DNA of 48,706 nt from an uncultured Candidatus Saccharibacteria bacterium (GTDB lineage Bacteria > Patescibacteriota > Minisyncoccia > Phycocordibacterales > UBA6065). A program made the position numbers and the translations under genes. Where the stretch lies: positions 1-48,706 of the forward strand of contig CAYJAC010000004.1 of NCBI GenBank assembly GCA_964368565.1. Reading direction: 5' to 3'. Of the stretch, positions 19,286 through 48,706 are shown one piece after another; positions within the stretch are counted from its first letter, which is position 1, and each line of letters begins with the position of its first letter. The notes beneath the pieces are model-generated. The model ran no database searches. It was not told the DNA's origin and saw only the letters and a program-made list of their open reading frames with translations.

Positions 19286-19294
19286 AAAGCAATA

Positions 19295-19939: not shown

Positions 19940-19943
19940 GACA

Positions 19944-19987
19944 GGTTCCAACATTATTCCACACTGCTAACAAGCAAGTGATATAAT
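19944..19987 (+). repeat. Junction repeat GGTTCCAACATTATTCCACACTGCTAACAAGCAAGTGATATAAT
   Basis: Shares GGTTCCAACAT..CCACACTGC.AAC with 18776 and 20329. Its 3' part, CTGCTAACAAGCAAGTGATATAAT, parallels the tRNA-Gln end CTGGCAACAACAAGATTTGATACAAT. Confidence 0.55.
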
Positions 19988-19993
19988 TTGTAT

Positions 19994-20326
19994 ATGAAAT
20001 CTCTGAAGTTTGAGTCACAGTACGTTTCCCAAATACTCTCAGGTGAAAAGACCAGCACCTGGAGACTTTTTGACGATAAAGATTTGAAAATACACGATTC
20101 GCTCGCCTTGGTAGATAGAGACAGTGGTGAGGTTTTCGCCAAAGCGGTGATAGTCAGAATCAGAGAGATGGAGCTCCAAAATGTTCGAGATAGCGATTAT
20201 GACAACACTCATCATAAACCCGCATCGAAAGAGGAACTCTATGAGTCATACAGAAAGAGCTACGGTCTCAAAGTTGCGCCCGATAGCATTCTAAAAATTA
20301 TCGATTTTGACCTTCTTAAGGCCTAG
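19994..20326 (+). CDS. ASCH-domain protein (YqfB-like size and pattern)
   Basis: About 110 aa. N-terminus LKFESQYVSQILSGEKTSTWR resembles the ASCH/PUA-like beta-barrel start. ATG lies 6 nt after TGaTATAAT. Confidence 0.65.
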   Translation: MKSLKFESQYVSQILSGEKTSTWRLFDDKDLKIHDSLALVDRDSGEVFAKAVIVRIREMELQNVRDSDYDNTHHKPASKEELYESYRKSYGLKVAPDSILKIIDFDLLKA

Positions 20327-20359
20327 AAGGATTCCAACATCGTCCCACACCACCATCAC
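20322..20359 (+). repeat. Junction repeat GCCTAGAAGGATTCCAACATCGTCCCACACCACCATCAC
   Basis: Third copy of the GGTTCCAACATCGTCCCACAC core. It overlaps the last codons and stop of the ASCH gene. Confidence 0.5.
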
Positions 20360-20407
20360 TTCTATTCCTAAATGGGTCAAAATGACCAAAGATGATAAAA
20401 TCAAGAC

Positions 20408-21025
20408 ATGTTAAAAATCTATTTAGCACGACATGGCCAAAACATCGATAATATCGCGGGTATTCTTAATGGTCACCGCGATGAGCCTTTGACTAAAAAG
20501 GGTATTGAACAAGCGCATGAAGTTGCTGAAAAAATAAAAGAAATCAAAGTGTATTTTGATGCTGTCTATAGCTCACCGCTCATGAGAGCCTTCGATACTG
20601 CAAAAATAATCTCAGAAACCACAAAATCTCCTGAACCTGAAAAAGAGTTACTTCTAATAGAACGTGATTTCGGGATTATGACAGGAAAGAATATATCTGA
20701 TATTGAAAAGCTATGTGCGCCAAGTATAATTAAAGCGGAAATTATTACTTATTTTCTTGATCCGGAGGGCGCTGAAACATTCCCTGATCTTATGGTACGA
20801 GCAAGAATTTTACTTGATAAAATCGAGGCGAAACAAAAAGATGGAAACATTCTACTGGTAACACATGGTGATATCGGAAAAATGATCTATGCCGAGTACT
20901 ATAAACTGGATTGGAAGAAGATTTTGACACAGTTCCATTTCGGTAATTGCGATTTACTCCTTATGTCAAAGGATTCAACACATGATAATGCCCATGTGTT
21001 TAAACTACTTCAACATAATCACTAA
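20408..21025 (+). CDS. Histidine phosphatase family protein (phosphoglycerate-mutase-like)
   Basis: Catalytic RHG motif (IYLARHGQN) and a C-terminal LLVTHGD motif. Confidence 0.85.
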   Translation: MLKIYLARHGQNIDNIAGILNGHRDEPLTKKGIEQAHEVAEKIKEIKVYFDAVYSSPLMRAFDTAKIISETTKSPEPEKELLLIERDFGIMTGKNISDIEKLCAPSIIKAEIITYFLDPEGAETFPDLMVRARILLDKIEAKQKDGNILLVTHGDIGKMIYAEYYKLDWKKILTQFHFGNCDLLLMSKDSTHDNAHVFKLLQHNH

Positions 21026-21080
21026 CAAAAACAAAAATCTCGGGCATTAGGTTCCTGAAACTTTTGTTATACTTCAACAT

Positions 21081-21497
21081 ATGAAAATAGGAGTAATCGG
21101 GAGTATGCAGTACATAGAGAGGATGCTTGAGACGCGGGACAAACTCAATGCCTTGGGCCACCAGGCATTTGTGACAGGCTTACACCAGGCATTTGTCGGT
21201 AAGACTGACGAGGAGAAGGAGGCTATTAAGATTGAGCAGAAGAACAATCAGGATGCCATAAGGGAATTTTGGAATATGATGCAGGGTGCGGATGCTGTAT
21301 TGGTGCTTAATCTCGACAAGCATGGTATCAAAAACTATATCGGCGGTAATACCCTCATGGAGATAGGTTTCGCTCATGTCCTAAACCAGAAGATATTTCT
21401 CCTCAATCCCATTCCCGACATCCAGTTCTACAAGACCGAAATCGAAGCGGTTAAGCCCATCATAATTAATGGAGATTTGTCTCTTATTAAAGCCTAG
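21081..21497 (+). CDS. Nucleoside 2-deoxyribosyltransferase-like Rossmann protein
   Basis: MKIGVIGSM start. DAVLVLNLDKHG...YIGGNTLMEIGFA pattern as in NDT-like or DUF4406-type proteins. Assignment is by motif resemblance only. Confidence 0.5.
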   Translation: MKIGVIGSMQYIERMLETRDKLNALGHQAFVTGLHQAFVGKTDEEKEAIKIEQKNNQDAIREFWNMMQGADAVLVLNLDKHGIKNYIGGNTLMEIGFAHVLNQKIFLLNPIPDIQFYKTEIEAVKPIIINGDLSLIKA

Positions 21498-21533
21498 AAC
21501 GGGTTCAGGTTTGACCACTATAATCATTGCATT

Positions 21534-22046
21534 ATGACTCGCACTATAGATATCAGAAATTTTAAAAAGATACTCATTATTGGTGAGTCTGGCCGGGGTA
21601 AGTCTACGCTTGCGCGAAAACTTGCCGATAGGTTTTCTCTACCGCTCTATTCCACAGACGATTTCTTTTGGAAAACCAAATTCACCGAACCGAATGATCG
21701 CCAAAAAAGCATTATCGATATTAAATCGATTTATGCAACCGATATGTGGATTGTTGAGGGCAGCTCTAATCATTTGATAGTACCAGGGCTAGAAAGGGCT
21801 GATGTAATAATCAACTTGGTGTTTCGAAACATATTCGCCCAGTGGTGGTCGCTTATAAAGCGAAACCAAGTAAGGGGTGGGGAGAGAATATTTTCCCACC
21901 TGGCCTATGTCGCAAAAAAGCGCTTTGGCATTGGTAATGACAAGGAAAAAAGAAAGCGCGAGGCTTTGAAACCGTACACTTTAAAGATTGTTACGCTCCG
22001 CTCCTATGGGCAGATTGATAGATTATTGCTTTCAAAGACCATTTAA
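21534..22046 (+). CDS. P-loop NTPase, adenylate-kinase/topology-modulation-protein-like
   Basis: Walker A IIGESGRGKSTLARKLA at the N-terminus; about 170 aa. Confidence 0.7.
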   Translation: MTRTIDIRNFKKILIIGESGRGKSTLARKLADRFSLPLYSTDDFFWKTKFTEPNDRQKSIIDIKSIYATDMWIVEGSSNHLIVPGLERADVIINLVFRNIFAQWWSLIKRNQVRGGERIFSHLAYVAKKRFGIGNDKEKRKREALKPYTLKIVTLRSYGQIDRLLLSKTI

Positions 22047-22101
22047 GGTCATCAGTTAGAACCTAATCAAAATCCCAATAAACCGTGATACAATCCCTCA
22101 T

Positions 22102-22440
22102 ATGACGCTTCGAAAGTTTCTTTCAGTAGCTTTGATTGCAGTTGCAGCATTCTCAGTCGCGGTATGCGCACACGCTGCTTTTGTTTCTATGGGCCATATG
22201 GAGGGCCACGCAGACATGTCTGAGGGACATGTTGCTCATGCTCAATCTCTGATACAGGCAACCGTCCCAGCAGTTATCCTATTTACGATCCTGATTGTAT
22301 TTGCTCTGGCTGTCGCGTCATTTTTTGACGCAATAACGGTTCACATCCAATCGGTGTACGTCGCACTCGAGTCGCCTCCGCCGCGCAGACAGTTGTACCT
22401 GTGCCGTACGTCTAGTCCTCGTTCGCCGCCGCGATACTAG
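22102..22440 (+). CDS. Small membrane protein with His-rich segment
   Basis: Signal/TM helix (FLSVALIAVAAFSVAVCAHA), HMEGHADMSEGHVAHAQ, and a second TM helix. ATG lies 7 nt after TGaTACAAT. Confidence 0.55.
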   Translation: MTLRKFLSVALIAVAAFSVAVCAHAAFVSMGHMEGHADMSEGHVAHAQSLIQATVPAVILFTILIVFALAVASFFDAITVHIQSVYVALESPPPRRQLYLCRTSSPRSPPRY

Positions 22441-22481
22441 GTTTTTCCTTGTATTACAAAGTCAGCTAACTAAAACATAAA

Positions 22482-22994
22482 ATGGAAATGACCCATTACA
22501 TGGAGTTGCTTGCGAGCAATCAACCATGGAACCTTATAGTATTCATGGCGATCCCGGTGATCTTGGCCGAGGCCGTCGCAATAACTGAACTCTACCTTCT
22601 CTTTACCCGCAAGCTGAGTGGTCCAGTTAAAAAAATTAATTCAGTAGCAGGTGCGTTAGTGGGAGTATATTTTGTCGGAGTCTTCCTGTACCTCATGAAT
22701 ACTGCTGTAATACCTCTCACCATGAGCGGGCAGTGGAGGGGTTATGCAGATGTTATTGCTGTAGGGTTTTACCTCGCCGGAGTTTTGCCGCTCGGAGGAT
22801 TGGCTCTTTTGGAGTTTGGTCTTATCAAAAGAAAAGCGGATGCCGAGGACAAACTAAAATTGCACGCAGTGTTGGTTGCGGTTTTTCTGGTTGTAGCCCA
22901 CGTAGCGATGATATTTGGCATGCTTAATCCGACTGTTACGGGTTGGGTTGCTCCGAATGCAGATGCAGCAAGTTCGATGATGATGGAGCACTAG
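22482..22994 (+). CDS. Integral membrane protein (4 TM), Met/His-rich C-terminus
   Basis: Four hydrophobic helices; C-terminus ADAASSMMMEH. Confidence 0.6.
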   Translation: MEMTHYMELLASNQPWNLIVFMAIPVILAEAVAITELYLLFTRKLSGPVKKINSVAGALVGVYFVGVFLYLMNTAVIPLTMSGQWRGYADVIAVGFYLAGVLPLGGLALLEFGLIKRKADAEDKLKLHAVLVAVFLVVAHVAMIFGMLNPTVTGWVAPNADAASSMMMEH

Positions 22995-23033
22995 AAAGTA
23001 TGAGGCTGGGCGGGATAGGTCTGTAGCAAATGC

Positions 23034-23058
23034 AAAACAGCGCCATCGGCGCTGTTTT
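23034..23058 (+). terminator. Intrinsic terminator
   Basis: AAAACAGCGCC-atc-GGCGCTGTTTT. Confidence 0.8.
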
Positions 23059-23072
23059 GCTATCATATATAC

Positions 23073-23510
23073 ATGGATATCAAACAAAGAATCAGTGAAG
23101 CTTTGGACAAGGGGCACCTTATGAGCCTAGCCACGATCGATAGTGGTGGTGTATGGGTCGCTGACTTAGTGTATGTGTGCGATGCGGATTTCAACATATA
23201 TTGGATGTCGCACGACAAGGTTCGACACTCGAAGGCGATTTCGGAAAATCCCGCAGTCGCCGGCAGTATTACTACGAATTTAAGGAATAAGGAGCCTAAC
23301 CTAGGAATTCAGTTTTCAGGTATTGCTACAAAAATCGACGGGCCAAGGTTCGACTTGGCAAAACTGCAAATGAAAAAAAGAGGCAATCCCGAACCAAAGG
23401 AAGGGGATGATGTTCTGAAGGGTGCATCGTGGTATGTACTGAAGCCAAAGCGTATTGACCTCATTGATGAGGTGAATCTGGGCTTCAAGAAGATGAGTCT
23501 GGATATGTAA
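23073..23510 (+). CDS. Pyridoxamine 5'-phosphate oxidase family (split-barrel) protein
   Basis: GHLMSLATIDSGGVWVADLVY...IYWMS pattern of PNPOx-like / general stress protein 26 family. Confidence 0.7.
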   Translation: MDIKQRISEALDKGHLMSLATIDSGGVWVADLVYVCDADFNIYWMSHDKVRHSKAISENPAVAGSITTNLRNKEPNLGIQFSGIATKIDGPRFDLAKLQMKKRGNPEPKEGDDVLKGASWYVLKPKRIDLIDEVNLGFKKMSLDM

Positions 23511-23527
23511 TACGATATACTTAACAT

Positions 23528-23923
23528 ATGAAAATACTTATATATATCTACGCGCTTCTTGCCTTGGCCATCCTTGATGCAATTTGGCTTTTTAGTACAG
23601 GAGCTCAGTATAAAAAATGGCTAGGGCATTTGTTTGCGGATAAAGTCAATTTTATTCCTGCGATCATCTTTTATCTTCTCTATACATTCGGTGTAGTCTT
23701 TTTCGTGGCTTGGCCAGCAATAAAGGGAGGAACAAGTTTACCGATGGTACTCTTGTCCGGCGCTCTCTTTGGTTTGATTGCATATGCCACCTATGACCTT
23801 ACCAACCATGCGACGATGCGCAGCTGGCCGCTAATAGTCACTTGTATTGATATGGTGTGGGGCGCAGTGCTGACGGGAATAGTGAGCGTAGCCGCTGTCG
23901 CTATCCATAGATACTTCAACTAA
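23528..23923 (+). CDS. DUF2177-like membrane protein
   Basis: 131 aa, four TM helices. N-terminus ALLALAILDAIWLFSTGAQYKKWLGHL resembles DUF2177. Confidence 0.6.
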   Translation: MKILIYIYALLALAILDAIWLFSTGAQYKKWLGHLFADKVNFIPAIIFYLLYTFGVVFFVAWPAIKGGTSLPMVLLSGALFGLIAYATYDLTNHATMRSWPLIVTCIDMVWGAVLTGIVSVAAVAIHRYFN

Positions 23924-24717
23924 TGCCGCTCGCACTTATTCAAACTCTGTCATATGTAGTGCTCGCTGTGTGGGTGTATATGACAATCTGGTTTATTGTT
24001 GGCACTATCCTTAAAAGAAACGACGTTGCAGACATTGCGTGGGGCATTGGTTTTATCATGGCCGGCATGGTACCGCTCGTCCTATATGGATTTGCTACAG
24101 GTAGGTCACTTGTGGCTATGACGCTTGTCATTATCTGGGGAGGCAGGTTGGCATACCACATAACGAGGCGCAATATTAAAAAGTCAGAGGATGGCAGATA
24201 CGTTGCGTGGAGAAATGCGTGGGGGAAGTGGGCGATACCGCGCGCATACGGTCAGATATTTTTATTGCAAGGAGTCCTTCTTATTCTGGTTGCAATGCCA
24301 GTTTTAGTTATTCATACGTATCGAGGAGGCTCCATGATGGCTCTGGATATAATTGGTATAGCGGTGTGGATGATTGGATTTGTTTTTGAATCTGTAGGCG
24401 ATCGACAGCTGCGCAGTTTTATAGGGAATCCCGAGAACAAGGGCAGGATTCTCGACACGGGACTATGGCGCTATACCCGCCACCCGAATTATTTTGGAGA
24501 AGTCACTCAGTGGTGGGGATTAGGCATCCTTGCCTTGTCTGTGCCGTACGGCTGGATAGGATTGATTGGACCTCTTACGATCACATTCCTTATCCTGAAG
24601 GTCTCTGGTGTGCCGATGCTAGAAAAAAACATGGAAAAGAATCCGCTTTTTGATGAGTATAGAAAAAGGACAAGTAGATTTCTTCCAATGCTGCAAAGAA
24701 AAGTAATTACCCAGTAA
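23923..24717 (+). CDS. DUF1295 / steroid 5-alpha-reductase-like membrane protein
   Basis: LWRYTRHPNYFGE motif; multi-TM. Start overlaps the upstream stop (TAATG). Confidence 0.75.
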   Translation: MPLALIQTLSYVVLAVWVYMTIWFIVGTILKRNDVADIAWGIGFIMAGMVPLVLYGFATGRSLVAMTLVIIWGGRLAYHITRRNIKKSEDGRYVAWRNAWGKWAIPRAYGQIFLLQGVLLILVAMPVLVIHTYRGGSMMALDIIGIAVWMIGFVFESVGDRQLRSFIGNPENKGRILDTGLWRYTRHPNYFGEVTQWWGLGILALSVPYGWIGLIGPLTITFLILKVSGVPMLEKNMEKNPLFDEYRKRTSRFLPMLQRKVITQ

Positions 24718-24728
24718 TAATAAAAAGA

Positions 24729-25094
24729 ATGAAAATCAAAGATATAGCGTTTACTTCGTATTCGGTTACCGATATCAAGAGATCGAAGGAATTTTATGAG
24801 GGTGTGCTCGGCCTCATACCTGCGAGTGTCTATGATGCAGAAGGTATGACATTTATCGAATATGAAATCGGTTCAGGATGCGTCACAATCGGTACGGGCA
24901 ATGATAACTTCAAGCCAGGGCCAGCGGGTGGAGGCATCGTTACCTTTGAAGTAGAAAATTTTGATGAAGCGATGGGTGAGCTTAAGGCAAAGAAAGTAGC
25001 CATTGTTATGGATGCAATGGATACGGGTGTTTGTCATTTGGCTATCATCGAGGATCCAGACGGCAACAGGATAATGATTCACAAGAAGAAATAG
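24729..25094 (+). CDS. VOC (glyoxalase/bleomycin-resistance) family protein
   Basis: 121 aa. FYEGVLGL and IEDPDGNRIMI are typical VOC beta-alpha-beta-beta-beta modules. Confidence 0.8.
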   Translation: MKIKDIAFTSYSVTDIKRSKEFYEGVLGLIPASVYDAEGMTFIEYEIGSGCVTIGTGNDNFKPGPAGGGIVTFEVENFDEAMGELKAKKVAIVMDAMDTGVCHLAIIEDPDGNRIMIHKKK

Positions 25095-40099: not shown

Positions 40100-40504
40100 T
40101 TATCGAAGCTTTCGGTCAGGATTAATCTCCCGGAGTGCTCTGAAACGATGGCTTGGTGCGATAGCCTCGTATTTCCAGCCTGTTTTCAGGAGGGGGTGCG
40201 GGGGCATAGGGTCTTTGGTGCAGACATTTCGATCGTGGTCGAAATCAAACAGCATTTCGCAGTAAAGCACAGAGATTCCCTTTATTGTATCGTCTCCGAT
40301 GTCTCTCACAATGAGGTCGACATCTTCTAGATAGATATGGGCATCGATACCCCGAATATCATCAAACAAGAAGGTTTTCGTGAGCGGATTATTGCTTCGT
40401 GCATAGAATCCGTGATTGAAGGCAAAGATCTGGGTCGTGCGGGGCATATTCAGATGTGGTTGAAGGGAGGAGTGGCGGTGCAGAGTACCGAGAGAATATA
40501 GCAT
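40100..40504 (-). CDS. Hypothetical protein (134 aa; may start at internal Met 20)
   Basis: Only an ORF with a downstream terminator; no recognisable motifs. Confidence 0.45.
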   Translation of the reverse strand: MLYSLGTLHRHSSLQPHLNMPRTTQIFAFNHGFYARSNNPLTKTFLFDDIRGIDAHIYLEDVDLIVRDIGDDTIKGISVLYCEMLFDFDHDRNVCTKDPMPPHPLLKTGWKYEAIAPSHRFRALREINPDRKLR

Positions 40505-41969: not shown

Positions 41970-42350
41970 GTGTTTACTCTACCTGCAAACGTCCGGAAAT
42001 GATAGTCATACCAGATAAACGGTCTCTCCGGCCTCCTGTAGGTAGTAGGTAGGAAGCATGACGAACAGCAGGGCGGAGGGGCTTTATCAATACTACTAGT
42101 CTTTTTTAAACATTACTAAACATTGATAGGTATATTTCGAATCTAAGCCATTTAGTGGGACGACAGTTCGATCGCGGTATCTAGCATGTAGGAGACTATT
42201 TTTAGGTAACAGGGTCAATCCGACTGATTTGCTGTCTTAGGTGACCTTTGATGGTTAAGGAGAGAAGGTTCCAAACTTGGTCGAACGCAAGATAAAGAAA
42301 AGTTAAAAAGGGGCTTGTCCACAGGGCTATTGCTGACGATAAAAACTATA

Positions 42351-45300
42351 ATGTCTGTAATGAGCCAGGATCTTCATTTTGAAGGAAAAAAATACATCTC
42401 GTCTAGGCGAGCTGCGGAAACCTGTGGCTATACTCAAGACTATATCGGCCAGCTGATCCGCGGGAAGAAAATTGACGCCCGTATGGTGGGACGTAGCTGG
42501 TTTGTGTCAGAAGAGTCCATACTTGGCTACAAAAAAATCCTCGATAATGCCCCTGTTTCTCCGGCAGCGGCAGTGACCCGTTTCCAGCCTAAGGCAGAGT
42601 CTGATTTAAAGTATAGTCCTGACGCTCGACCGAGCCTTCCTGAGCTATCAAAGGAGAAAGTACCGGTATCTACCTACTCTGAGCCACAGGTCCTGCAGCC
42701 CAGCCCACGTCTCTCTGTACGATCAAATAGGGTAAAGGCACCTAGTATTCAAGGTCTATCGAGCCTGAGTAAGAAAGTACTGGCTGGAGTTTTTTCGCTT
42801 TCTATTATTACTGGTAGTTTCTGGATGAGCGAAGTCGACAATGCTCGATCAGCCCTTACTGCAGTACAGAGTGTGGGTGAAAAAATGCAGGCCATGCTTT
42901 CAGATTCGAACGACGGATTGGCTGCTGTCGCCGCACCATCACTAGAGATTGATCAAGAACCTTCACGAGGATTTTTTGCGTCAGCTGCAGTAGGTGTCTA
43001 TGAGACGTTCCATTCTTTCTTTGTTAAGACTGCCGACTCTATTGCATCTCTCTTTGTTGATGAACCGACCCATATCACCGAGGTGGCAATCATTACTCCA
43101 GAGCCCGCACCTGTTTTAGTTCAAGATGTTTCGAAAGCAAATACATCTGAACAAACGATTGTTGTTAGGGAAGTAGTGCAGGATGCTGGCGATTCTGCGC
43201 CGACGACTGTAAACAACTACTATGAGACAGCTGTTGCACAGGGTGCAAGTGAGGCAGAGCTTGCGGCGCTACAATCCCAGATAAACACTCTGCGAAGTGC
43301 TTCCACTATTAATATACAGAATGTTCGTAACACTCGTGAGTCGAGCGGGACAAGGGACATAACTGGCTCTGACATAACCGAAGCAGATATTACAAGGTCT
43401 ACCATTAGGAGCTCTTCTGTGAGTGCAACAGATCTTTCAGCGTCAGGAAGTTCAAACCTTGCGGGCCTTACTTTCGGAAATGCCACAGGGGGAAGCGCTA
43501 CGACAACAAGCTTCTTCACAGATATATTGAGTGCGGCAATAGGCTCCATAACAGATCTCTTTGCTACAAACGTGAGTATTGTTAATTCAACAACTACGAA
43601 CGCGACTTCAACAAATCTGTATTCTGATTTGGTAACTGTGTCGGGAACAATTAGTCTGCAGAGCGCGACACCGCTCATAACAACTAACAAACTGTATGCA
43701 AATGGTACCGATCTGTATTGGGCGGGAAATGTGATCGGAGGCTCGTCTACGGGAAACTGGACGACAAACGGTACTGATGCGTGGAGAGCGACAGGAAATG
43801 TAGGGGTGGGAACATCATCTCCTTTTGCAAGGCTTTCCGTTACATCTTTTAATGGAGGTTCGGTTCCACTCTTTGCGGTGAGTACATCAACGGGTGCTGG
43901 AGCTACATCAACAGCATTTATTGTTGATGCATACGGCAGTGTCGGAATAAACACTGACAATCCTAATCAACTCGATTTCGGAGGAGGAGTTCTGGCATTT
44001 AAAGGCAGGTCAAATGCAACGACGGGTTCCATAGTAGCTATTGGTAACAATGTCATTGGTACCAATCCAATCGGACGATTCGCTTTCATACAGGAAGCTG
44101 TGGGAGTTCAGACGCATGTTGCATTGGTACAAGCTCTTCGATCTGGTGGAGATGATGGTGCGGATTTAAACTTTATGACAAAGCAGTCTGGTGGATCCCT
44201 CACTGAAAAAATGAGGATAACAAGTGATGGTAAGGTGGGGATCGGAACGTCATCACCTGTGGCACTTTTCACCATTGCGTCTTCGACTGCGAATTCTACC
44301 CATCTGGAAGCTATAAGGATTTCTAATTCAAATCCGAATGGATGGGGCTCATATATGTTCTTTGAAAGACCAGGGGATTCTAGTCGTGGTTTAGCAATCG
44401 GAGAGCAGTATGTACCTCAATCGGGCCTCATTCCTTTTATAAGAACAGCTGGAGCTATTTCGGAAGAGTTGCAAATCGAAACTGCTATCAACAATAGTGG
44501 TGTTAAAGGAAATCTTTATATCGGTTCTCGAAATTTTAGTGCCACTGCTGGCAAGATTGGTGTGGCAACAACCACTCCGTGGGCATCACTTTCTGTTGCT
44601 GGTTTGGCGGGCCAGACAAATCCACTCTTTGTTATTTCTTCGTCGACCGTGTCTTTTTCGACATCCACTGCGTTTATAGTAGATTCAAATGGTAATACAG
44701 GAATCGGCACTACGAGCCCTCTAGCGCGTCTCGACGTGCGTGACTCCGCACAGGTGGTTGCGGCATTTCGTGGAACAAATGCGCATAATACAGTTGTTAT
44801 CGATAATCTAGGAGGAGCTAGTTTTAAGAGCCAGGTATCTTTTCAGGCGCAGGGCACAGAAAAATGGGCGATTGGGAGTGATATAAATGCTGCGGGTTCA
44901 GATAACTTTTATATATGGAATGCGACAGGTGGTCGAACTCCTCTTGCTATCGATGGTACCGCTAATACTATTGTATTGTCGCAGACTGGTTCGTATAAAG
45001 TGGGTGTGGGGACCACTACTCCTTCGCAAACTCTTTCCGTAGCTGGAAATGGATATTTTGCAGGTTCAAATGGAAGTGCAAATGCGTTTGTTGGGCTAAG
45101 GGCACAAAACACTGATTCAAATGGCACTACCCAGATCACGGCAATGAATAATGCGGGTGCGACTGTTTCTTTAGGTGTAGCAGGTTCAACTCAAGGTGGA
45201 GGATTTGCAAATATTGGTCAACTTGGTGCGTCGAACGCCCTGGCCCTCTTTACTAATAGTGCAGAGAGGATTCGTATTGATACATCAGGAAATGTGGGAA

Positions 45301-48300
45301 TTGGTACGACAACTCCGGCAGCCTTTCTTGATCTGTATCAAAATGCGAATTCTGCAACAGAGCTAAGGGTGACAAATGCAAATTCAGGCACTTCTGTGCG
45401 AACTCGACTTGCGTTTTATTCAAATGCGGGTCTCGGTACCGTCAATTCTGCTTTGCTTCAGTTGAACAACCAGACGAATAATCTTGAATTGACAGCTTTG
45501 GGCGGAGGAGGTGTCACGGACAGGCATATTGTTTTTACTCCTGCTGGATCGGGCAATGTTGGGATTGGTACAACAACTCCTGTTAGCAAACTTTCTGTCG
45601 TAACTGCTGGAAGCGCCGTAACAGAAAATGGCCTCAGCATGTATCACGGCCGCGGAAGCATCGGAGACAATGTTCGCCTAGCTTTTTATCCTCGAGGAGG
45701 AACAAGTCAGAACGTGTATGCGGCGATCGACGGTCTTGGTCAAAGCGGTCCAAGCACGGCTTTGTCATTTATCACTTCAGCTATTGCTGGAAGCCCAACA
45801 GAAAAGATGCGCCTTGATGCTAGTGGTAATTTGGGAATTGGTACAACCAGTCCATCTGCAAAACTTGCGGTTCAGGGTTCTGGCACAGGCAGCGTGCTTA
45901 TCGGAGAGTACGGCGGAAGCAATGCGTATGGCGCTATAGGATTGGGAGGATCAATATCAGCGACCGGCTATAACTTTGCGAGCAGCCCTTCTGACTCTAC
46001 GTTGTATGTGAATCGTCCGACGGGAGGCGGAATAAGGTTCCAGGAGAATGGCACGCCTCAGATGACAATTGTTACGGGTGGTAATGTTGGTATAGGTACC
46101 ACAACGCCAGCCAACTTGCTACACATTGGTAGTGGCTCTGGAACAAAGAGTGTTGACCCAGGGGTAAACTTAAACAGAATAATATCAACAGGCACTGGTA
46201 ACGCTCATGGATTTTCAGACTCATCAACAATAAGCAGAAGTGGGGGGATTGGATACAATTCGTTTGACGGAAGATACACCATAAACGGCACAGCAGATTT
46301 TGACCACACTGTACCATTTCAATCAGCTCCAACATATTCGTCATCAGGAACTATAACTAATATCTACGGACTGTTTTCTTCGCCAGCCATAACCGCAGGA
46401 ACAGTAACAAACAACTACGGAGCATGGTTTAACGACCCTCAAAAGTCAGGAGGCACTCTTACAAATAACTATGGAATATATGTCGCCCCACAAACAGCAG
46501 GTACAAACAATTATGCCGCTGCATTAATGGGTAAGGTTGGTATAGGAACTGCTACTCCAGGACAACTTCTTGAAATCACAGGTGCTTCTCCTCGTTTTTA
46601 TATGAACGACTCTGGCACAAGTTATCTCATGATGAAGATGACAAGTAACACAACTCAAACTGGTTATATTGGTCTTGAGGGTTCAGCGGGTGGTGCTGTA
46701 CTTACAGGGTCATCACCTTACGCCCAAGTATTCACGACAGGGGGAGGGGCTAATCCTATTCAATTTGGAACTAACGGCGTTCTCCGCGCAACGATAAGTG
46801 GGACTGGCAACGTCGGCATAGGCATAACTTCGCCTCATGTGCGCCTCCACATCGCAAGCACGACAGTATCCTCGACCGCCGGCAAGGTTTCGGAGTATCT
46901 GCAGATCGGAGGCACTGAGAATGGGCTCAACTCGTATCGTCTCATCGGTTTCGGCTACACGACGGCGACGGATTTAAATTCGCCTGCATATATCGGATAT
47001 CAGGAAACTGCGAACAACGGTGAGACATCCGGAGATTTGGTTTTTGGAACGCGATCCGTACAGACTGATACCGCCCCGAGCGAACGCTTGAGGATCACCT
47101 CTGCAGGCAACCTCGGAATTGGAACGACTACTCCGGGTTTCCTGCTTTCCCTCGCTGGAGCAACAGGAGCAAATCAGGTCGGCATCAATAATACGAGCAC
47201 GACAGTGGTTACGGGAGATGTCGTCGGCAAATTAAGCTGGTATACCTCAGATGCATCGACTATCAATCAGCGCGAAGTATCTTCGATTCTTACCATTGCC
47301 GATAGCGATTATGTTGGAACGGACAACGCTCAAACTTCGATGACATTCTCGACTCATGGCGCGGGCGTAGGTCTCGGGAGCATCGAACGCATGCGAATCA
47401 CAGGCGCGGGCAACGTCGGTATTGGAACGACGACTCCTTCAAGTAAGCTTACGATTTCTGATACTAATCGCGACATGACGAGCTCCTTGGCGAATGTTGA
47501 AATAAATTCCACATCCGCACGAGGAGCTGGAGTTGGCGGTTCGCTTATGTTCGGCGGTCTCTATACTACGAATCAAACCGTAGACAGTTTCGCTGGCCTC
47601 AAAGGCTTCAAAGAAAATGCCACTGATGCCAACACAGCTGGTGCTTTCTCCATTTCTACCCGTGCGGCAGGCGGAGCATTGCTCGAAAAAGTGAGGGTTG
47701 ATAGTACGGGTAATATGGGCATCGGTACGACGACCCCACTCCATATGTTGAGTGTGACTAATCCGTCGGGGGCTGGAACAAATGTCTATGTTGCACAGTT
47801 TGCTTCTGCAGCAGGAGTGAATGTTCCACTTGTAATGTATTCTGATCCAAGTGGTTCTGCTATTGTAAACCAGACAGGAAGTCTCACGGGAGCTGAGTAT
47901 ATTTACATGACCCAGAGCGGTAACATGACATTTAATACCGCTGGCTCGGAATGGATGAGAATTAATTCAACAGGCAATGTTGGAATTGGAACGACGTCTC
48001 CGATGAGCACACTGTCAGTTAACTCTTCGTCAGCTACAGCTGAAGATGTGCTCAATATCAGGAGTGGTGCTGATAATCAAAGTGAATACACAGGTATCAA
48101 GATATGGAACAATGTCGGTCTCAACAGTGTTGCGCTTCGCAATATCCTCGGTGTTGGTGGTGCGAATAGATTTGGGGTATTCGTCAAGGATAACGCAGGT
48201 AACCCAGAGACGGAGAGACTTTCCGTACTATCATCTGGAAACGTCGGTATTGGAACGACGAGCCCAACGGTAAAATTAGAAGTCACAAACACTTCTGGCG

Positions 48301-48706
48301 ACGCTATCATGCGACTCGACAGTGCATCAGGAAGCGGATCAGCAATAAGACTTGCTCGTGCTGGTACAAACAAGTGGGGTATTTTCAACAACCTCGATAC
48401 CACTGATAAGTTCTCAATTTATAATTACACCACCTCTGCGAGCGCGCTCGTCATAGATACTTCAAGCAACGTCGGCATCGGTACAACATCACCTCGAGCA
48501 AAACTTCAAGTAACTGAAGGTGCATCAGGTGCACAGCTTTCGAACAATTACGATACTCTTTTTGTTGAAAATGGTGCAACGGGAGGTATTACTATAGGTA
48601 CACCTAGTTCTGCGTCAGGTATGTTGTCGTTTGCGGATCCCGGCAGCTCGATTGCAGGATATGTAAATTATGATCATACGAATGATGCTATGTCATTTGG
48701 TACTGC
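42351..48706 (+). CDS. Giant surface protein, 3'-truncated by the window (at least 2118 codons): N-terminal excisionase/MerR-like HTH, one TM helix, tail-fibre-like repeats
   Basis: The frame with codons starting at positions divisible by 3 is open from 42351 to the window end, so the ORF is absent from the track. I translated about 42351-44250 by hand without meeting a stop. The track reports no sub-ORFs in this frame. A likely leaderless start is ATG 42360, 7 nt after TATAAT (42347-42352). HTH: YISSRRAAETCGYTQDYIGQLIRGKKIDARMVGRSWFVSEESI. TM: VLAGVFSLSIITGSFWM (about 42777-42830). At least 17 copies of G-N-[VLM]-G-I-G-T-T-x-P-x-x-x-L-x-V lie every 260-300 nt between 43794 and 48500. Confidence 0.9.
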   Translation, partial: MSVMSQDLHFEGKKYISSRRAAETCGYTQDYIGQLIRGKKIDARMVGRSWFVSEESILGYKKILDNAPVSPAAAVTRFQPKAESDLKYSPDARPSLPELSKEKVPVSTYSEPQVLQPSPRLSVRSNRVKAPSIQGLSSLSKKVLAGVFSLSIITGSFWMSEVDNARSALTAVQSVGEKMQAMLSDSNDGLAAVAAPSLEIDQEPSRGFFASAAVGVYETFHSFFVKTADSIASLFVDEPTHITEVAIITPEPAPVLVQDVSKANTSEQTIVVREVVQDAGDSAPTTVNNYYETAVAQGASEAELAALQSQINTLRSASTINIQNVRNTRESSGTRDITGSDITEADITRSTIRSSSVSATDLSASGSSNLAGLTFGNATGGSATTTSFFTDILSAAIGSITDLFATNVSIVNSTTTNATSTNLYSDLVTVSGTISLQSATPLITTNKLYANGTDLYWAGNVIGGSSTGNWTTNGTDAWRATGNVGVGTSSPFARLSVTSFNGGSVPLFAVSTSTGAGATSTAFIVDAYGSVGINTDNPNQLDFGGGVLAFKGRSNATTGSIVAIGNNVIGTNPIGRFAFIQEAVGVQTHVALVQALRSGGDDGADLNFMTKQSGGSLTEKMRITSDGKVGIGTSSPVALFTIASSTANSTHLEAIRISNSNPNGWGSYMFFERPGDSSRGLAIGEQYVPQSGLIPFIRTAGAISEELQIETAINNSGVKGNLYIGSRNFSATAGKIGVATTTPWASLSVAGLAGQTNPLFVISSSTVSFSTSTAFIVDSNGNTGIGTTSPLARLDVRDSAQVVAAFRGTNAHNTVVIDNLGGASFKSQVSFQAQGTEKWAIGSDINAAGSDNFYIWNATGGRTPLAIDGTANTIVLSQTGSYKVGVGTTTPSQTLSVAGNGYFAGSNGSANAFVGLRAQNTDSNGTTQITAMNNAGATVSLGVAGSTQGGGFANIGQLGASNALALFTNSAERIRIDTSGNVGIGTTTPAAFLDLYQNANSATELRVTNANSGTSVRTRLAFYSNAGLGTVNSALLQLNNQTNNLELTALGGGGVTDRHIVFTPAGSGNVGIGTTTPVSKLSVVTAGSAVTENGLSMYHGRGSIGDNVRLAFYPRGGTSQNVYAAIDGLGQSGPSTALSFITSAIAGSPTEKMRLDASGNLGIGTTSPSAKLAVQGSGTGSVLIGEYGGSNAYGAIGLGGSISATGYNFASSPSDSTLYVNRPTGGGIRFQENGTPQMTIVTGGNVGIGTTTPANLLHIGSGSGTKSVDPGVNLNRIISTGTGNAHGFSDSSTISRSGGIGYNSFDGRYTINGTADFDHTVPFQSAPTYSSSGTITNIYGLFSSPAITAGTVTNNYGAWFNDPQKSGGTLTNNYGIYVAPQTAGTNNYAAALMGKVGIGTATPGQLLEITGASPRFYMNDSGTSYLMMKMTSNTTQTGYIGLEGSAGGAVLTGSSPYAQVFTTGGGANPIQFGTNGVLRATISGTGNVGIGITSPHVRLHIASTTVSSTAGKVSEYLQIGGTENGLNSYRLIGFGYTTATDLNSPAYIGYQETANNGETSGDLVFGTRSVQTDTAPSERLRITSAGNLGIGTTTPGFLLSLAGATGANQVGINNTSTTVVTGDVVGKLSWYTSDASTINQREVSSILTIADSDYVGTDNAQTSMTFSTHGAGVGLGSIERMRITGAGNVGIGTTTPSSKLTISDTNRDMTSSLANVEINSTSARGAGVGGSLMFGGLYTTNQTVDSFAGLKGFKENATDANTAGAFSISTRAAGGALLEKVRVDSTGNMGIGTTTPLHMLSVTNPSGAGTNVYVAQFASAAGVNVPLVMYSDPSGSAIVNQTGSLTGAEYIYMTQSGNMTFNTAGSEWMRINSTGNVGIGTTSPMSTLSVNSSSATAEDVLNIRSGADNQSEYTGIKIWNNVGLNSVALRNILGVGGANRFGVFVKDNAGNPETERLSVLSSGNVGIGTTSPTVKLEVTNTSGDAIMRLDSASGSGSAIRLARAGTNKWGIFNNLDTTDKFSIYNYTTSASALVIDTSSNVGIGTTSPRAKLQVTEGASGAQLSNNYDTLFVENGATGGITIGTPSSASGMLSFADPGSSIAGYVNYDHTNDAMSFGT

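What the first reader, a model, noticed from the sequence alone, without database searches (positions are those of the whole stretch)
42351..48706. Hidden giant ORF: membrane-tethered HTH fused to more than 1900 aa of tail-fibre-like repeats, running off the window
The ORF is not in the supplied track because it has no stop within the window. Architecture: a cytoplasmic excisionase/MerR-type HTH (about aa 10-60), a Pro/Ser linker, and a single TM helix (about aa 143-160). A Thr/Ser/Asn-rich region follows (LYANGTDLYWAGNVIGG). After that come at least 17 modules of about 90-100 aa. Each module starts G-N-V-G-I-G-T-T-x-P-x-x-[KRL]-L-x-V and is often preceded by E-R-[ML]-R-I-[TD]-x-x. This motif is typical of phage tail-fibre or tail-spike stalks and giant bacterial adhesins. 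A DNA-binding-type domain on the inner side of such a fibre is unusual. In a reduced, possibly episymbiotic lineage this is a prime candidate for a host-attachment or signalling structure. The repeats are diverged at the DNA level, so they are not an assembly artefact of identical units.
Basis: partly seen in the sequence, partly recalled or inferred. Interest (0 to 1): 0.7.

Follow-up and report, generated by a model that had tools for sequence, protein, structure and literature searches.

The report
Membrane-anchored adhesive fibre of a CPR bacterium
The open-ended giant gene is real and most likely encodes a long, phage-tail-fibre-like surface fibre of an ultra-small Patescibacteria (CPR) cell; the fibre is related to the prey-recognition fibres of Bdellovibrio but is held in the membrane by an unusual N-terminal DNA-binding-type domain plus one membrane helix, a combination that is common in this lineage yet uncharacterised.

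Summary
The ORF from 42351 (likely start 42360) stays open for 2118 codons to the window end. It has an N-terminal winged HTH, a Pro/Ser linker, one hydrophobic helix and 18 diverged fibre modules.

The modules are homologous to the trimeric beta-helix units of Bdellovibrio MAT (mosaic adhesive trimer) fibres: a profile of the window's own modules hits 8OND at 4.5e-19. They are also related to cyanophage tail fibres.

The HTH is a divergent HTH_17 (excisionase/MerR-type) domain. The window's copy is below Pfam's cut-off, but 35 of 40 relatives match.

Two positional orthologues (2579 and 3621 aa) sit in the same housekeeping synteny. Both end in an S74 chaperone-protease domain with its Ser/Lys dyad intact. 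The gene is therefore chromosomal, not phage, and the missing C-terminus is probably S74.

The HTH-TM anchor is a large Patescibacteria family (about 6,000 clusters). It heads 37 of the 89 giant fibre relatives and many small proteins, and is absent from viral contigs.

Best reading: an N-in membrane-anchored trimeric adhesin for host or partner recognition. The role of the HTH is unresolved.

This is a new variant of a known kind and is moderately to highly interesting.

The parts
42313..42326 (+). Invariant upstream non-coding block GCTTGTCCACAGGG (contains TGTCCACA, an imperfect palindrome). Candidate regulatory site of the giant gene.
   Evidence: Identical in the window and in orthologous loci L002 and L004, although the proteins are only about 47% identical. 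Found only at the orthologous loci among 84 loci. One exact copy in the window. Function is inferred.
42346..42362 (+). TATAAT-like box overlapping the first ATG (42351), followed by conserved TGTAATG. The likely true start codon is ATG 42360, possibly with a very short or absent leader.
   Evidence: Alignment of three orthologous upstream regions. Orthologue proteins align from residue 4 of the 42351 translation. No Shine-Dalgarno sequence is evident. The promoter assignment is inferred.
42351..48706 (+). Giant ORF, at least 2118 codons, truncated by the end of the window or contig.
   Evidence: No stop in frame. Intact orthologues of 2579 and 3621 aa lie in the same synteny.
42372..42548 (+). 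Cytoplasmic winged helix-turn-helix, a divergent HTH_17 (excisionase/MerR-like) domain, aa 8-66.
   Evidence: HTH_17 at 18 bits, below cut-off. 35 of 40 relatives hit HTH_17. AF2 pLDDT 87.8 with topology beta-beta-alpha-alpha-beta-beta-alpha. Foldseek neighbours are TraN, Pukovnik Xis (rmsd 1.0 A), BldC, RdfS and RacA.
42549..42776 (+). Pro/Ser-rich cytoplasmic linker (aa 67-142). It contains a short conserved motif, KYSPDARPSLPELSK (aa 87-101, nt 42609-42653).
   Evidence: Composition and charge. A related motif [DEN]-x-[RKS]-x(1,2)-[LIM]-[LIMPF]-P-x-[LIV] is found in 21 of 82 HTH-bearing proteins (the 81 relatives plus the query), against 1 of 162 background windows. The window's own copy is a variant that this strict regex misses.
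42777..42827 (+). Single hydrophobic helix (aa 143-159, VLAGVFSLSIITGSFWM). Predicted N-in/C-out signal-anchor.
   Evidence: KD mean 1.33. An equivalent segment, preceded by basic residues, occurs in all 81 HTH-bearing relatives with KD 1.45-3.1. Charge is +3 before and -1 after.
42828..43757 (+). Non-repeat ectodomain base (aa 160-469). It includes a short helical segment (aa about 301-331) and a Thr/Ser/Asn-rich stretch ending in LYANGTDLYWAGNVIGG (aa 448-464).
   Evidence: Collinear with P0047 and P0048 at 47-48% identity. The same LY..DLYWAGN.IGG..TGNWTTNGTD.WRA junction occurs in P0012. No Pfam hit. The fold was not determined.
43758..48704 (+). Fibre stalk: 18 diverged modules (about 47-150 aa, mostly 85-107). 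Each begins with G-N-V-G-I-G-T-T-x-P-x-x-x-L-x-V. Motifs start at nt 43794, 43935, 44229, 44550, 44691, 44994, 45288, 45552, 45825, 46080, 46530, 46806, 47106, 47409, 47709, 47973, 48237 and 48465.
   Evidence: Motif map. The profile of the window's own modules hits MAT fibre structures 8OND 4.5e-19, 8OML 8.7e-13, 8OJN, 8ON4 and 8OL4, and nothing else in the PDB. PHROG tail-fibre families score 5e-63 and 1e-56. Cyanophage and pelagiphage tail fibres match at 28-30% identity. The AF2 monomer model is all-beta, and its Foldseek top hits are Bd1334, the T5 L-shaped tail fibre and Bd2439.

Best explanation
The gene encodes a chromosomally encoded surface fibre of a Patescibacteria (Paceibacteria/Parcubacteria-type) cell.

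Proposed topology: the N-terminal roughly 140 aa (winged HTH plus Pro/Ser linker) stay in the cytoplasm. One helix (aa 143-159) acts as an uncleaved N-in signal-anchor. The remaining 1,950 or more aa are exported and fold into a long trimeric, intertwined beta-helix/beta-prism stalk. The stalk is built from serial modules whose G-N-V-G-I-G-T-T-x-P-x-x-x-L motif corresponds to the 'capping loops' of Bdellovibrio MAT fibres.

Missing C-terminus, by orthology: an S74 intramolecular chaperone-protease that drives trimer folding and then cleaves itself off at a Ser/Lys dyad, followed by a coiled coil and a Pro/Glu-rich tail.

Likely function: contact and adhesion to a host or partner cell surface, probably a glycan or envelope structure. 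A secreted LamG (lectin-fold) protein encoded immediately downstream in the orthologues may contribute.

The HTH-TM unit is a lineage-wide anchoring module, reused on many different ectodomains. Its cytoplasmic ligand (DNA or a protein) is unknown.

Shown here: the open frame, module homology to solved fibres, the HTH fold and family, a conserved hydrophobic helix with positive-inside charge, orthologue synteny and the S74 domain in the orthologues.

Inferred: trimerisation, topology, surface exposure, the adhesive role and S74 cleavage in this particular protein.
For: - Open frame of 2118 codons.
- The module profile hits only Bdellovibrio MAT fibre structures in the PDB (8OND 4.5e-19, 8OML 8.7e-13, and others). 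MAT fibres are experimentally trimeric, surface-displayed and glycan-binding (PMC10769870).
- PHROG tail-fibre families score 5e-63 and 1e-56. Phage tail fibres match at 28-30% identity.
- The fold search of the module model returns fibres only at the top.
- HTH: family-level HTH_17 (35 of 40), a confident AF2 model and Xis/TraN/BldC/RacA structural neighbours.
- TM: a hydrophobic helix preceded by basic residues follows the HTH in all 81 relatives. Charge is +3 before and -1 after in the window protein.
- Orthology and cellular origin: identical gene order (RNaseH-like/TruB/RRM/BipA/IspA/TlyA/giant) in two other genomes, with 47-48% collinear identity over about 1000 aa. The rest of the window is housekeeping. 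No relative of the HTH anchor was found on 2.9 M viral contigs.
- S74 in orthologues: Pfam 22.9 bits in P0047. The domain is recovered in 44 giants with invariant Ser and Lys(+5). The profile hits solved IMC domains 6F45 2.6e-17, MyRF 7DC3 4.5e-14, T5 8HQZ and phi29 3GUD.
- Downstream secreted LamG genes in both orthologous loci.
Against: - The window's own HTH is below every curated threshold (18 vs 27 bits; 19 vs 28.8 bits).
- Its TM helix is only moderately hydrophobic (KD 1.33), and no dedicated topology predictor was available.
- The C-terminus is missing and could not be recovered. S74 and any tip domain are therefore extrapolated from orthologues whose repeat regions are not collinear with this one beyond about aa 1000.
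- The AF2 monomer model of two modules is mediocre (pLDDT 68.4, TM-scores 0.2-0.37).
- There is no expression, localisation or binding data for any member. Trimerisation cannot be tested with a monomer predictor.
- The host or partner of this organism is unknown.
Confidence: 0.72

Rival explanations
1. Membrane-tethered one-component sensor or transcription factor (ToxR/CadC-like logic). The fibre is the extracellular sensor of host contact, and the cytoplasmic HTH binds DNA at the membrane to switch genes on attachment. In cells this small the nucleoid would be within reach of the membrane. This is compatible with the fibre also being an adhesin.
For: The closest structural neighbours of the HTH are all DNA binders (TraN, Xis, BldC, RdfS, RacA). 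The family belongs to HTH_17. Net charge of the domain is +3 here and averages +2.8 across the family. An invariant imperfectly palindromic block (TGTCCACA within GCTTGTCCACAGGG) sits about 35 nt upstream of the gene in three orthologous loci. An ECF sigma/anti-sigma pair lies a few kb downstream in the orthologues.
Against: The predicted recognition helix (D-Y-I-G-Q-L-x-R) is the most conserved part of the domain across paralogues that carry entirely different ectodomains (Y31, L35 and R37 invariant). That is unlike sequence-specific regulators with different regulons. About 6,000 clusters share it, and several copies can sit side by side in one genome, which fits a generic anchor or docking module. 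The upstream block is absent from all other family loci. A trimeric fibre does not match the usual dimeric HTH operator geometry. No DNA binding has been tested.
Confidence: 0.15
2. The HTH-like domain is not a DNA binder. It is a cytoplasmic docking or sorting module, comparable to the HTH of RodZ that binds MreB. It would tie the fibre base to a cytoplasmic or membrane partner, for example the small double-HTH-TM proteins often encoded next door, to position, export or assemble fibres. In this reading the fibre is a pure adhesin.
For: The same HTH-TM unit heads at least 118 ORFs in 80 loci, with ectodomains from about 100 aa to over 3,000 aa. A recurrent gene pair places a small 2xHTH-TM protein immediately upstream of a giant HTH-TM fibre. 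A second conserved short linear motif lies in the cytoplasmic linker (21 of 82 vs 1 of 162 background). The helix-2 surface is nearly invariant. CbpM, a non-DNA-binding MerR-like protein, is among the structural neighbours.
Against: No partner has been identified. The window and its orthologous loci lack the small partner gene next to the giant gene. Most structural neighbours bind DNA.
Confidence: 0.1
3. Prophage-, tailocin- or phage-remnant tail fibre gene, or an assembly or gene-calling artefact that fuses unrelated pieces.
For: Strong PHROG tail-fibre hits and phage tail-fibre tblastn hits. The contig breaks inside the gene.
Against: The gene sits in conserved housekeeping synteny in three genomes, and no phage genes occur in the 48.7 kb window. 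The N-terminal TM anchor is incompatible with virion assembly. The HTH anchor was not found on viral contigs. Intact full-length orthologues have the same N-terminus and the same HTH-to-repeat junction. The repeats are diverged at the DNA level.
Confidence: 0.03

Closest known systems
Bdellovibrio bacteriovorus MAT (mosaic adhesive trimer) fibres: Bd2133, Bd1334, Bd2439, Bd3182 and others (Caulton et al. 2024, PMC10769870; PDB 8OND, 8OML, 8OL4/8ONF, 8OJN, 8ON4)
   Same: Both have repeating beta-helix/beta-prism stalk modules with the same capping-loop-type motif (ER[ML]RI...GN[VL]G[IL]GT..P...L.V). The profile E-value to 8OND is 4.5e-19. An S74 chaperone-protease follows the stalk (in the orthologues here). 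Both are chromosomally encoded by a small cell that lives on other cells, so the likely role is recognition of another cell's surface.
   Different: MAT proteins have a cleaved signal peptide plus a conserved beta-rich N-terminal domain of about 130 aa, thought to bind the predator's outer surface. Here the N-terminus is a cytoplasmic HTH_17-like domain, a linker and a TM anchor. The proteins here are 2-4 times longer (2,100 to 3,600 aa, against about 900-1,150 aa for the MAT proteins whose residue ranges that paper gives). The S74 domain is followed by a further 200-270 aa (coiled coil plus Pro/Glu-rich tail). The organism is a Patescibacterium; the one cultured member of the class stains Gram-positive (PMC12281837). 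It is not a diderm predator.
Phage tail fibres and tailspikes with a C-terminal S74 intramolecular chaperone (K1F endosialidase, T5 pb1 L-shaped fibre, phi29 gp12; T7-like cyanophage tail fibres such as P-SSP3 and S-CRES1)
   Same: The stalk module family is shared (PHROG 18345 and 9942; 28-30% identity to cyanophage fibres). The S74 Ser/Lys autoproteolytic chaperone is shared (profile hits 6F45, 8HQZ, 3GUD).
   Different: This protein is not virion-associated. It lies at a chromosomal housekeeping locus, has an N-terminal membrane anchor instead of a tail- or baseplate-attachment domain, is much longer, and its anchor was not found on viral contigs.
Eukaryotic MyRF (myelin regulatory factor)
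   Same: It is the only characterised protein family that combines a DNA-binding domain, a TM helix and a phage-type S74 (ICA) domain in one trimerising polypeptide. The S74 profile built here hits MyRF 7DC3 at 4.5e-14.
   Different: The domain order and logic differ. In MyRF the order is DBD-S74-TM, with S74 on the cytoplasmic side, so cleavage releases the DBD to the nucleus. Here the order is HTH-TM-fibre-S74, with S74 outside and more than 2,000 aa from the HTH, so S74 cleavage cannot release the HTH. The MyRF DBD is described as Ndt80-like (from my own knowledge, not checked here), whereas this domain is HTH_17.
Bitopic membrane proteins with an N-terminal cytoplasmic HTH (ToxR/CadC one-component regulators; RodZ)
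   Same: The topology matches: an N-terminal cytoplasmic HTH, a single TM helix and an extracytoplasmic C-terminal domain.
   Different: The HTH classes differ (OmpR-type winged helix in ToxR/CadC and XRE-type in RodZ, as I recall them; neither was compared here). Their ectodomains are small sensor or structural domains, not a giant fibre. No functional data exist for the present family.

Membership tests
MAT (mosaic adhesive trimer) fibre superfamily (Bdellovibrio) | Stalk of beta-helix/beta-prism modules with capping-loop motif (V-G-G/N-pi-x-x-P-x-x-x-L) | tested here: met
   Whole protein vs PDB: 8OND 9.8e-11. Profile of the window's own 14 modules: 8OND 4.5e-19, 8OML 8.7e-13, 8OJN 3e-6, 8ON4 2.4e-5, 8OL4 5e-5, with no other PDB hits. 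18 motif copies.
MAT (mosaic adhesive trimer) fibre superfamily (Bdellovibrio) | Signal peptide followed by the conserved beta-rich N-terminal domain of about 130 aa, present in all 21 MATs | tested here: not met
   The N-terminus is an HTH_17-like domain, a linker and a TM helix. No solved structure of the MAT N-terminal domain exists to compare with, but the sequence here is clearly a different domain.
MAT (mosaic adhesive trimer) fibre superfamily (Bdellovibrio) | C-terminal S74 chaperone-protease (SDxxxK) or an alternative (NS74) adhesive tip | tested here: inconclusive
   The C-terminus lies beyond the window and could not be retrieved. Positional orthologues P0047 and P0048 carry S74 with S-T-R-D-A-K, so the Ser and Lys(+5) are invariant.
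MAT (mosaic adhesive trimer) fibre superfamily (Bdellovibrio) | Intertwined homotrimer displayed on the cell surface | not testable with these tools
   Only monomer prediction was available. Testing needs a multimer model, negative-stain EM or immunolabelling.
Phage tail fibre / tailspike | Encoded in a phage or prophage genome and attached to a virion | tested here: not met
   Housekeeping neighbours and conserved synteny in three genomes. No phage genes in the window. The HTH anchor was not found on viral contigs.
Pfam HTH_17 (PF12728; excisionase/MerR-like winged HTH) | Score at or above the gathering threshold of 27 bits | tested here: not met
   The window copy scores 18 bits, E=0.0034. 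TIGR01764 gives 19.3 bits against 28.8. Relatives do pass: P0106 28.6 bits, P0001 36.1 bits and P0143 39.5 bits, and 35 of 40 reach E<=0.01.
Pfam HTH_17 (PF12728; excisionase/MerR-like winged HTH) | Two-helix HTH followed by a beta-hairpin wing | tested here: met
   AF2 pLDDT 87.8, with H18-25, H29-37 and a wing at E43-46/E49-53. Foldseek: Pukovnik Xis rmsd 1.0 A over 47 aa (TM 0.76-0.78 normalised to Xis), plus TraN, BldC, RdfS and RacA. E-values are only 0.015-0.1.
Pfam HTH_17 (PF12728; excisionase/MerR-like winged HTH) | Binds DNA | not testable with these tools
   Needs EMSA or ChIP. Sequence conservation is ambiguous.
Membrane-tethered one-component regulators (ToxR/CadC type) | N-terminal cytoplasmic DNA-binding domain, single TM helix and extracytoplasmic sensor domain | tested here: inconclusive
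   The topology pattern is met by sequence features, but the HTH is of a different class. Neither DNA binding nor regulation has been shown.
MyRF-type S74-released transcription factors | S74 domain lies between the DNA-binding domain and the TM helix, so autocleavage frees the DBD | tested here: not met
   In the orthologues the order is HTH-TM-fibre-S74. S74 sits about 2,100-3,100 aa after the TM helix, on the predicted outside.

The most novel reading that the evidence does not exclude
The cytoplasmic HTH is a working DNA-binding domain. These fibres would then physically couple an extracellular host-binding filament (estimated below at about 70-100 nm) to the nucleoid of an ultra-small cell. 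They could act as direct contact- or force-sensing membrane-tethered regulators, or as nucleoid-to-envelope tethers. The roughly 6,000-cluster HTH-TM family would be a previously unrecognised, lineage-wide class of membrane-bound DNA-binding proteins in Patescibacteria.
Probability: 0.2. Interest if true: 0.85.

Novelty: new variant of a known kind. Interest (0 to 1): 0.62.

Why it matters
How Patescibacteria (CPR) other than Saccharibacteria recognise and hold on to their hosts is essentially unknown, and current accounts invoke type IV pili almost exclusively. The one cultured member of this class attaches with striking specificity to a single host structure (PMC12281837).

This analysis shows that Paceibacteria-type genomes encode giant fibres homologous to the prey-recognition MAT fibres of Bdellovibrio and to phage receptor-binding fibres. 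The fibres sit at conserved chromosomal loci, vary in length between close relatives and have secreted lectin-fold partners. That gives concrete, testable candidates for host-specificity determinants.

It also defines an uncharacterised anchoring module (excisionase-type HTH, linker motif and TM helix) that heads thousands of envelope proteins in this lineage. If that module binds DNA, it would be a new way of wiring the cell surface to the genome. If it is a docking module, it defines a lineage-specific surface-protein anchoring system. I found no paper in the searchable library that links S74/MAT fibres or this HTH-TM module to Patescibacteria.

Tried and rejected
1. Extending the contig. 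Exact-product look-up of the neighbouring TlyA gene found nothing. BipA is on record only on a 2.3 kb Logan contig. A 62-nt exact pattern from the window end gave 0 hits in both genome contigs and metagenome contigs. The true C-terminus is therefore unknown.

2. Pfam on the whole protein returned nothing, even at E<=1. Only split queries and other libraries were informative.

It was redone with 9 close sequences, so the 80 loci are biased towards close relatives.

4. A single-sequence search of the orthologue C-terminus against the PDB missed S74. A family profile was needed.

5. Phage origin was considered and rejected on synteny, the TM anchor and absence from viral contigs.

6. A MyRF-like release mechanism was considered and rejected because the domain order is wrong.

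7. The conserved upstream block as a family-wide operator was rejected, because it occurs only at the orthologous loci.

8. A diversity-generating retroelement or pili/secretion genes near the fibre: none in the window.

9. The monomer AF2 model of two modules gave only a partial model (pLDDT 68.4). It was used as weak corroboration, not as proof.

10. Six literature searches found no prior description of this architecture in CPR. Absence from this library is not proof of absence.

Full report
**1. Checking the observation**

Translating 42351-48706 (+) gives 2118 codons without a stop. The nearest upstream in-frame stop is at 42249-42251. The ORF is missing from mechanical ORF lists only because it runs off the window.

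The proposed features are all present:
- an N-terminal HTH-like segment;
- a Pro/Ser-rich linker (aa 67-142);
- one hydrophobic segment, VLAGVFSLSIITGSFWM (aa 143-159);
- the Thr/Ser/Asn-rich stretch with LYANGTDLYWAGNVIGG (aa 448-464);
- 18 copies of the G-N-V-G-I-G-T-T-x-P-x-x-x-L-x-V motif, mostly 85-107 aa apart, eight of them preceded by E-[RKW]-[MILV]-[RS]-[ILV].

A profile built from 14 of the modules finds 18 significant domains in this ORF and nothing else in the six-frame translation of the window.

At the DNA level only the 31-55 nt motif core is detectably repeated, at 60-80% identity, and Tandem Repeats Finder sees no array.

One small correction concerns the start codon. Both orthologues align from residue 4, and the three orthologous upstream regions share a TATAAT-like box that overlaps the first ATG, followed by an invariant TGTAATG. 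The real start is therefore probably ATG 42360.

**2. The organism and the locus**

The rest of the window is ordinary cellular housekeeping. It includes:
- DNA and replication: topoisomerase I, ParB, a Pol III clamp-loader-type ATPase, MgsA and a UvrD/PD-(D/E)XK helicase-nuclease;
- translation and RNA modification: SerRS, Dus, TruB, BipA, TlyA/FtsJ and three tRNAs;
- envelope: alanine racemase and IspA.

There are no phage, pilus, secretion-system or retroelement genes. All relatives of the giant protein come from Patescibacteria MAGs: Paceibacterota, Parcubacteria, Minisyncoccia, and Taylor-, Kaiser-, Adler- and Campbellbacteria.

The two closest relatives are P0048 (2579 aa) and P0047 (3621 aa). 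They are 47-48% identical and collinear with the window protein over the first roughly 1000 aa. They also lie in the same gene order: RNaseH-like, TruB, hypothetical, RRM, hypothetical, BipA, (Adk), IspA, TlyA, then the giant gene. They are therefore positional orthologues, and the gene is a stable chromosomal feature of this lineage. The orthologues differ by more than 1,000 aa in length and lose collinearity inside the repeat region, so the stalk evolves by module gain, loss and shuffling.

**3. The stalk**

Pfam is blind to the stalk. PHROGs places it in two 'tail fiber protein' families at 5e-63 and 1e-56. tblastn finds cyanophage and pelagiphage tail fibres at 28-30% identity.

The decisive result is against solved structures. 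The whole protein hits Bd2133 (8OND, 9.8e-11) and other Bdellovibrio 'cell wall surface anchor family' entries. A profile made only from the window's own modules hits 8OND (4.5e-19), 8OML (8.7e-13), 8OJN, 8ON4 and 8OL4, and nothing else in the PDB.

These entries are the MAT (mosaic adhesive trimer) fibres described by Caulton et al. 2024 (PMC10769870). They are intertwined trimeric beta-helix/beta-prism fibres with 'capping loops' of consensus V-G-G/N-pi-x-x-P-x-x-x-L. They are displayed on the predator's surface, end either in an S74 chaperone-protease or in diverse adhesive tips, and one of them binds prey glycans. The window's motif is that capping-loop element; compare ERMRIDTSGNLGLGTAAPTSALHV in Bd2133.

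An AF2 monomer model of two modules is all-beta. It is confident only for one module (mean pLDDT 68.4, but 81-94 over the last 70 residues). This is expected for a chain that normally folds as an intertwined trimer. Even so, the Foldseek top hits are exclusively fibres: Bd1334, the T5 L-shaped tail fibre, Bd2439 and Bd2133.

A rough length estimate follows from the paper's dimensions. It gives about 150 A for 370 residues of Bd2133, so the 1,650 or more stalk residues present here would span roughly 70 nm. The 3,621-aa orthologue would exceed 100 nm. This is inference.

**4. The missing C-terminus**

I could not extend the contig. In the orthologues the last module is followed by ...FVNISTRDAKHDI...GLIAEEAP.... 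Pfam calls this Peptidase_S74 in P0047, at 22.9 bits against a cut-off of 22.

Iterative search recovers the same domain in 44 of the giant relatives. The only invariant columns of the alignment are the catalytic Ser, the Lys five residues later, and the G and A of GLIAEE. The profile hits solved intramolecular-chaperone domains: a phage long tail fibre (6F45, 2.6e-17), 8JOV, MyRF (7DC3, 4.5e-14), the T5 L-shaped tail fibre entry (8HQZ) and phi29 gp12 (3GUD).

One difference from phage proteins stands out. In most of the HTH-anchored proteins S74 is followed by another 130-270 aa, often a coiled coil and a Pro/Glu/Thr-rich tail. Most relatives without the HTH, presumably phage-like, end within about 30 aa of the domain.

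**5. The N-terminus**

The window's own HTH is sub-threshold: HTH_17 at 18 bits against 27, and TIGR01764 at 19.3 against 28.8. At family level, however, the assignment is solid:
- 35 of 40 aligned relatives hit HTH_17, with a best E-value of 7.5e-9, and several exceed the gathering score.
- AF2 gives a confident beta-beta-alpha-alpha-beta-beta-alpha winged helix (pLDDT 87.8).
- Foldseek's best neighbours are excisionase/MerR-type DNA binders: TraN of pIP501, mycobacteriophage Pukovnik Xis (rmsd 1.0 A), BldC, RdfS and RacA. E-values are weak (0.015-0.1) because the domain is small.

Every one of the 81 HTH-bearing proteins retrieved has a hydrophobic helix 40-250 aa downstream, preceded by Lys or Arg. 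In the window protein the flanks are +3 before and -1 after. This is the pattern of an N-in/C-out signal-anchor. The window's helix is only moderately hydrophobic (KD 1.33), as is that of orthologue P0048 (1.49).

A short linear motif in the linker (Y-x-x-D-x-R-P-L-L-P-x-L-x-K; here KYSPDARPSLPELSK) recurs in at least a quarter of the family, against about 0.6% of background windows.

**6. How common the architecture is**

Of 89 giant relatives, 37 carry this HTH-TM head. Many of the others have an N-terminal signal-peptide-like hydrophobic segment, and the rest have neither.

In 80 species-representative genome loci I found 118 HTH-TM ORFs:
- 59 complete ones are shorter than 500 aa.
- 14 complete ones exceed 1000 aa.
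- 43 run off the locus or contig end. Some of these contigs, like the window, end inside the gene.

A recurrent gene pair places a small protein with two tandem HTH domains and a TM helix directly upstream of a giant HTH-TM fibre. The window and its orthologous loci lack that neighbour.

An exhaustive profile search finds 5,993 clusters (at 50% identity) with E<=1e-10. The top hits are all double-HTH proteins of about 300-400 aa. No relative was found on 2.9 million viral contigs. The HTH-TM unit is therefore a lineage-wide, cellular, modular membrane anchor, and the fusion to a fibre is one of its standard uses rather than a curiosity of this contig.

**7. Mechanism**

The best-supported model (confidence about 0.7) is a membrane-anchored MAT-like adhesin. 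The HTH and linker stay in the cytoplasm, and one helix anchors each chain. Three chains fold from the C-terminal S74 chaperone into an intertwined fibre. S74 then cleaves itself off and exposes the distal end, which contacts another cell's surface. In both orthologous loci the next gene, translationally coupled in one, encodes a secreted LamG/lectin-fold protein of about 680 aa, and an ECF sigma/anti-sigma pair lies a few kb further on.

Shown: homology of each part, the conserved order, and the chromosomal context. Inferred: topology, trimerisation, cleavage, surface exposure and the adhesive role.

The function of the HTH is open.
- For DNA binding: its fold class and neighbours, a modest positive charge, and an invariant semi-palindromic block upstream of the gene in the three orthologous loci.
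- Against a sequence-specific regulator: the predicted recognition helix is the most conserved part of the domain across paralogues with unrelated ectodomains; several copies sit side by side in single genomes; and the upstream block is absent from other family loci.

A docking or sorting role, analogous to RodZ's HTH binding MreB (my own knowledge), fits the modularity, the linker motif and the gene pairing. I rate the sensor/regulator reading at about 0.15 and the pure docking reading at about 0.1 as distinct alternatives. Both are compatible with the fibre being an adhesin. Phage origin or artefact is about 0.03.

**8. Comparison with known systems**

It works like a Bdellovibrio MAT fibre and like a phage receptor-binding fibre. 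It is not a member of the MAT family in the strict sense, because the defining signal peptide plus conserved N-terminal beta-rich domain is replaced. It is not a phage tail fibre, because it is not virion-encoded.

MyRF is the only characterised protein I know of that combines a DNA-binding domain, a TM helix and S74. Its domain order (DBD-S74-TM) lets S74 release the DBD. Here the order is HTH-TM-fibre-S74, so that mechanism is excluded.

ToxR/CadC and RodZ share the bitopic HTH-TM-ectodomain topology, but they use other HTH classes and small ectodomains.

**9. Novelty and interest**

Database records call these proteins 'hypothetical', 'tail fiber domain-containing', 'helix-turn-helix domain-containing' or 'immunoglobulin-like domain-containing'. 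Six full-text searches found no paper connecting MAT/S74 fibres or an HTH-TM anchor with Patescibacteria. That is absence from this library only.

The cultured Minisyncoccus archaeiphilus attaches exclusively to the polar plug of its archaeal host. Its authors discuss only type IV pili as the attachment machinery.

I classify the finding as a new variant of a known kind: a MAT/S74 fibre with a new, lineage-specific cytoplasmic-HTH membrane anchor. Interest is about 0.6. It offers concrete candidates for host-specificity determinants in a major uncultured lineage and defines a large uncharacterised membrane-bound HTH family. All functional statements remain inference, and the gene is truncated in this window.

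Noticed in passing
window 42093-42130 and 42313-42362; L002 about 9735-10010; L004 about 6065-6340: The non-coding DNA upstream of the giant gene has invariant blocks across three genomes whose proteins are only about 47% identical. These include TACTAGTC.TTTT.AAA.ATTA.TAAAC.TT.ATAG (with AAACATT repeated 11 nt apart), ATCTAAGCCAT and GCTTGTCCACAGGG, plus a TATAAT-like box overlapping the first ATG. This suggests a conserved promoter or operator and perhaps a near-leaderless transcript.
   Followed up: partly
L051, L059, L065, L069, L072, L080, L081, L060, L068, L073 (about 9.6-11.6 kb in each locus); L071 9887-12593: A recurrent gene pair occurs in Paceibacteria. A protein of about 300-425 aa with two tandem HTH_17-like domains and one TM helix lies directly upstream, on the same strand, of a long or giant HTH-TM fibre gene. 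The complete genome CP174359.1 has three HTH-TM genes in a row. The window and its orthologous loci lack this partner.
   Followed up: partly
L002 17740-20254; L004 17209-22302 (just beyond where the window ends): In both orthologous loci the giant gene is followed by one or two secreted Laminin_G_3 (LamG, lectin-fold) proteins of about 680 aa, with stop/start overlap in L002. Next comes a conserved membrane protein of 142-149 aa, then a divergently oriented membrane protein (231-242 aa, probably an anti-sigma factor) with an ECF sigma factor.
   Followed up: partly
window 42609-42653 (aa 87-101) and relatives P0009, P0026, P0047, P0063, P0087 and others: A conserved short linear motif sits in the cytoplasmic linker between the HTH and the TM helix (Y-x-x-D-x-R-P-L-L-P-x-L-x-K; here KYSPDARPSLPELSK). 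A strict regex finds it in 21 of 82 HTH-bearing proteins, against 1 of 162 background windows. It is a candidate docking site for an unknown cytoplasmic partner.
   Followed up: partly
P0082, P0100, P0101, P0063 (relatives): Some HTH-anchored fibre relatives carry precomputed Pfam hits to pretoxin-HINT (PF07591), Hint or intein-splicing domains (PF01079, PF14890) and NYN nuclease (PF01936). This suggests either inteins inside fibre genes or polymorphic-toxin-like C-terminal cargo on some fibres.
   Followed up: no
P0047 aa about 3400-3621; P0048 aa about 2370-2579; after_domain column: Most HTH-anchored giants have an extra 130-270 aa after the S74 domain: a coiled coil, a small segment with two conserved Cys (...GQP[FY]C.F..NG......GEC...) and a Pro/Glu/Thr-rich tail. 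Most relatives lacking the HTH end within about 30 aa of S74. The fate and role of this released fragment are unknown.
   Followed up: no
window 18500-25094: Directly after tRNA-Gln (18500-18571) the GC content drops to 0.39-0.40. A run of small same-strand genes of miscellaneous function follows: SAM methyltransferase, histidine phosphatase, a P-loop protein, DUF6803, a PNPOx-like protein, DUF2177, DUF1295 and glyoxalase. This may be an accessory island.
   Followed up: partly
window 40100-40504 (-) versus L002 7289-8017 and L004 3007-3762: The adenylate kinase gene found between BipA and IspA in both orthologous loci is absent at this position in the window. Only a 134-aa ORF without Pfam hits occupies the gap; L004 has both Adk and a 174-aa hypothetical protein there.
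   Followed up: no
loci (for example L007, L009, L012, L014, L022, L030, L035): Some MAG contigs end inside a giant HTH-TM fibre gene, as this window does. 43 of the 118 HTH-TM ORFs run off the locus or contig end. These genes appear to be systematic assembly break points, so their true number and length are probably under-counted in Patescibacteria MAGs.
   Followed up: partly
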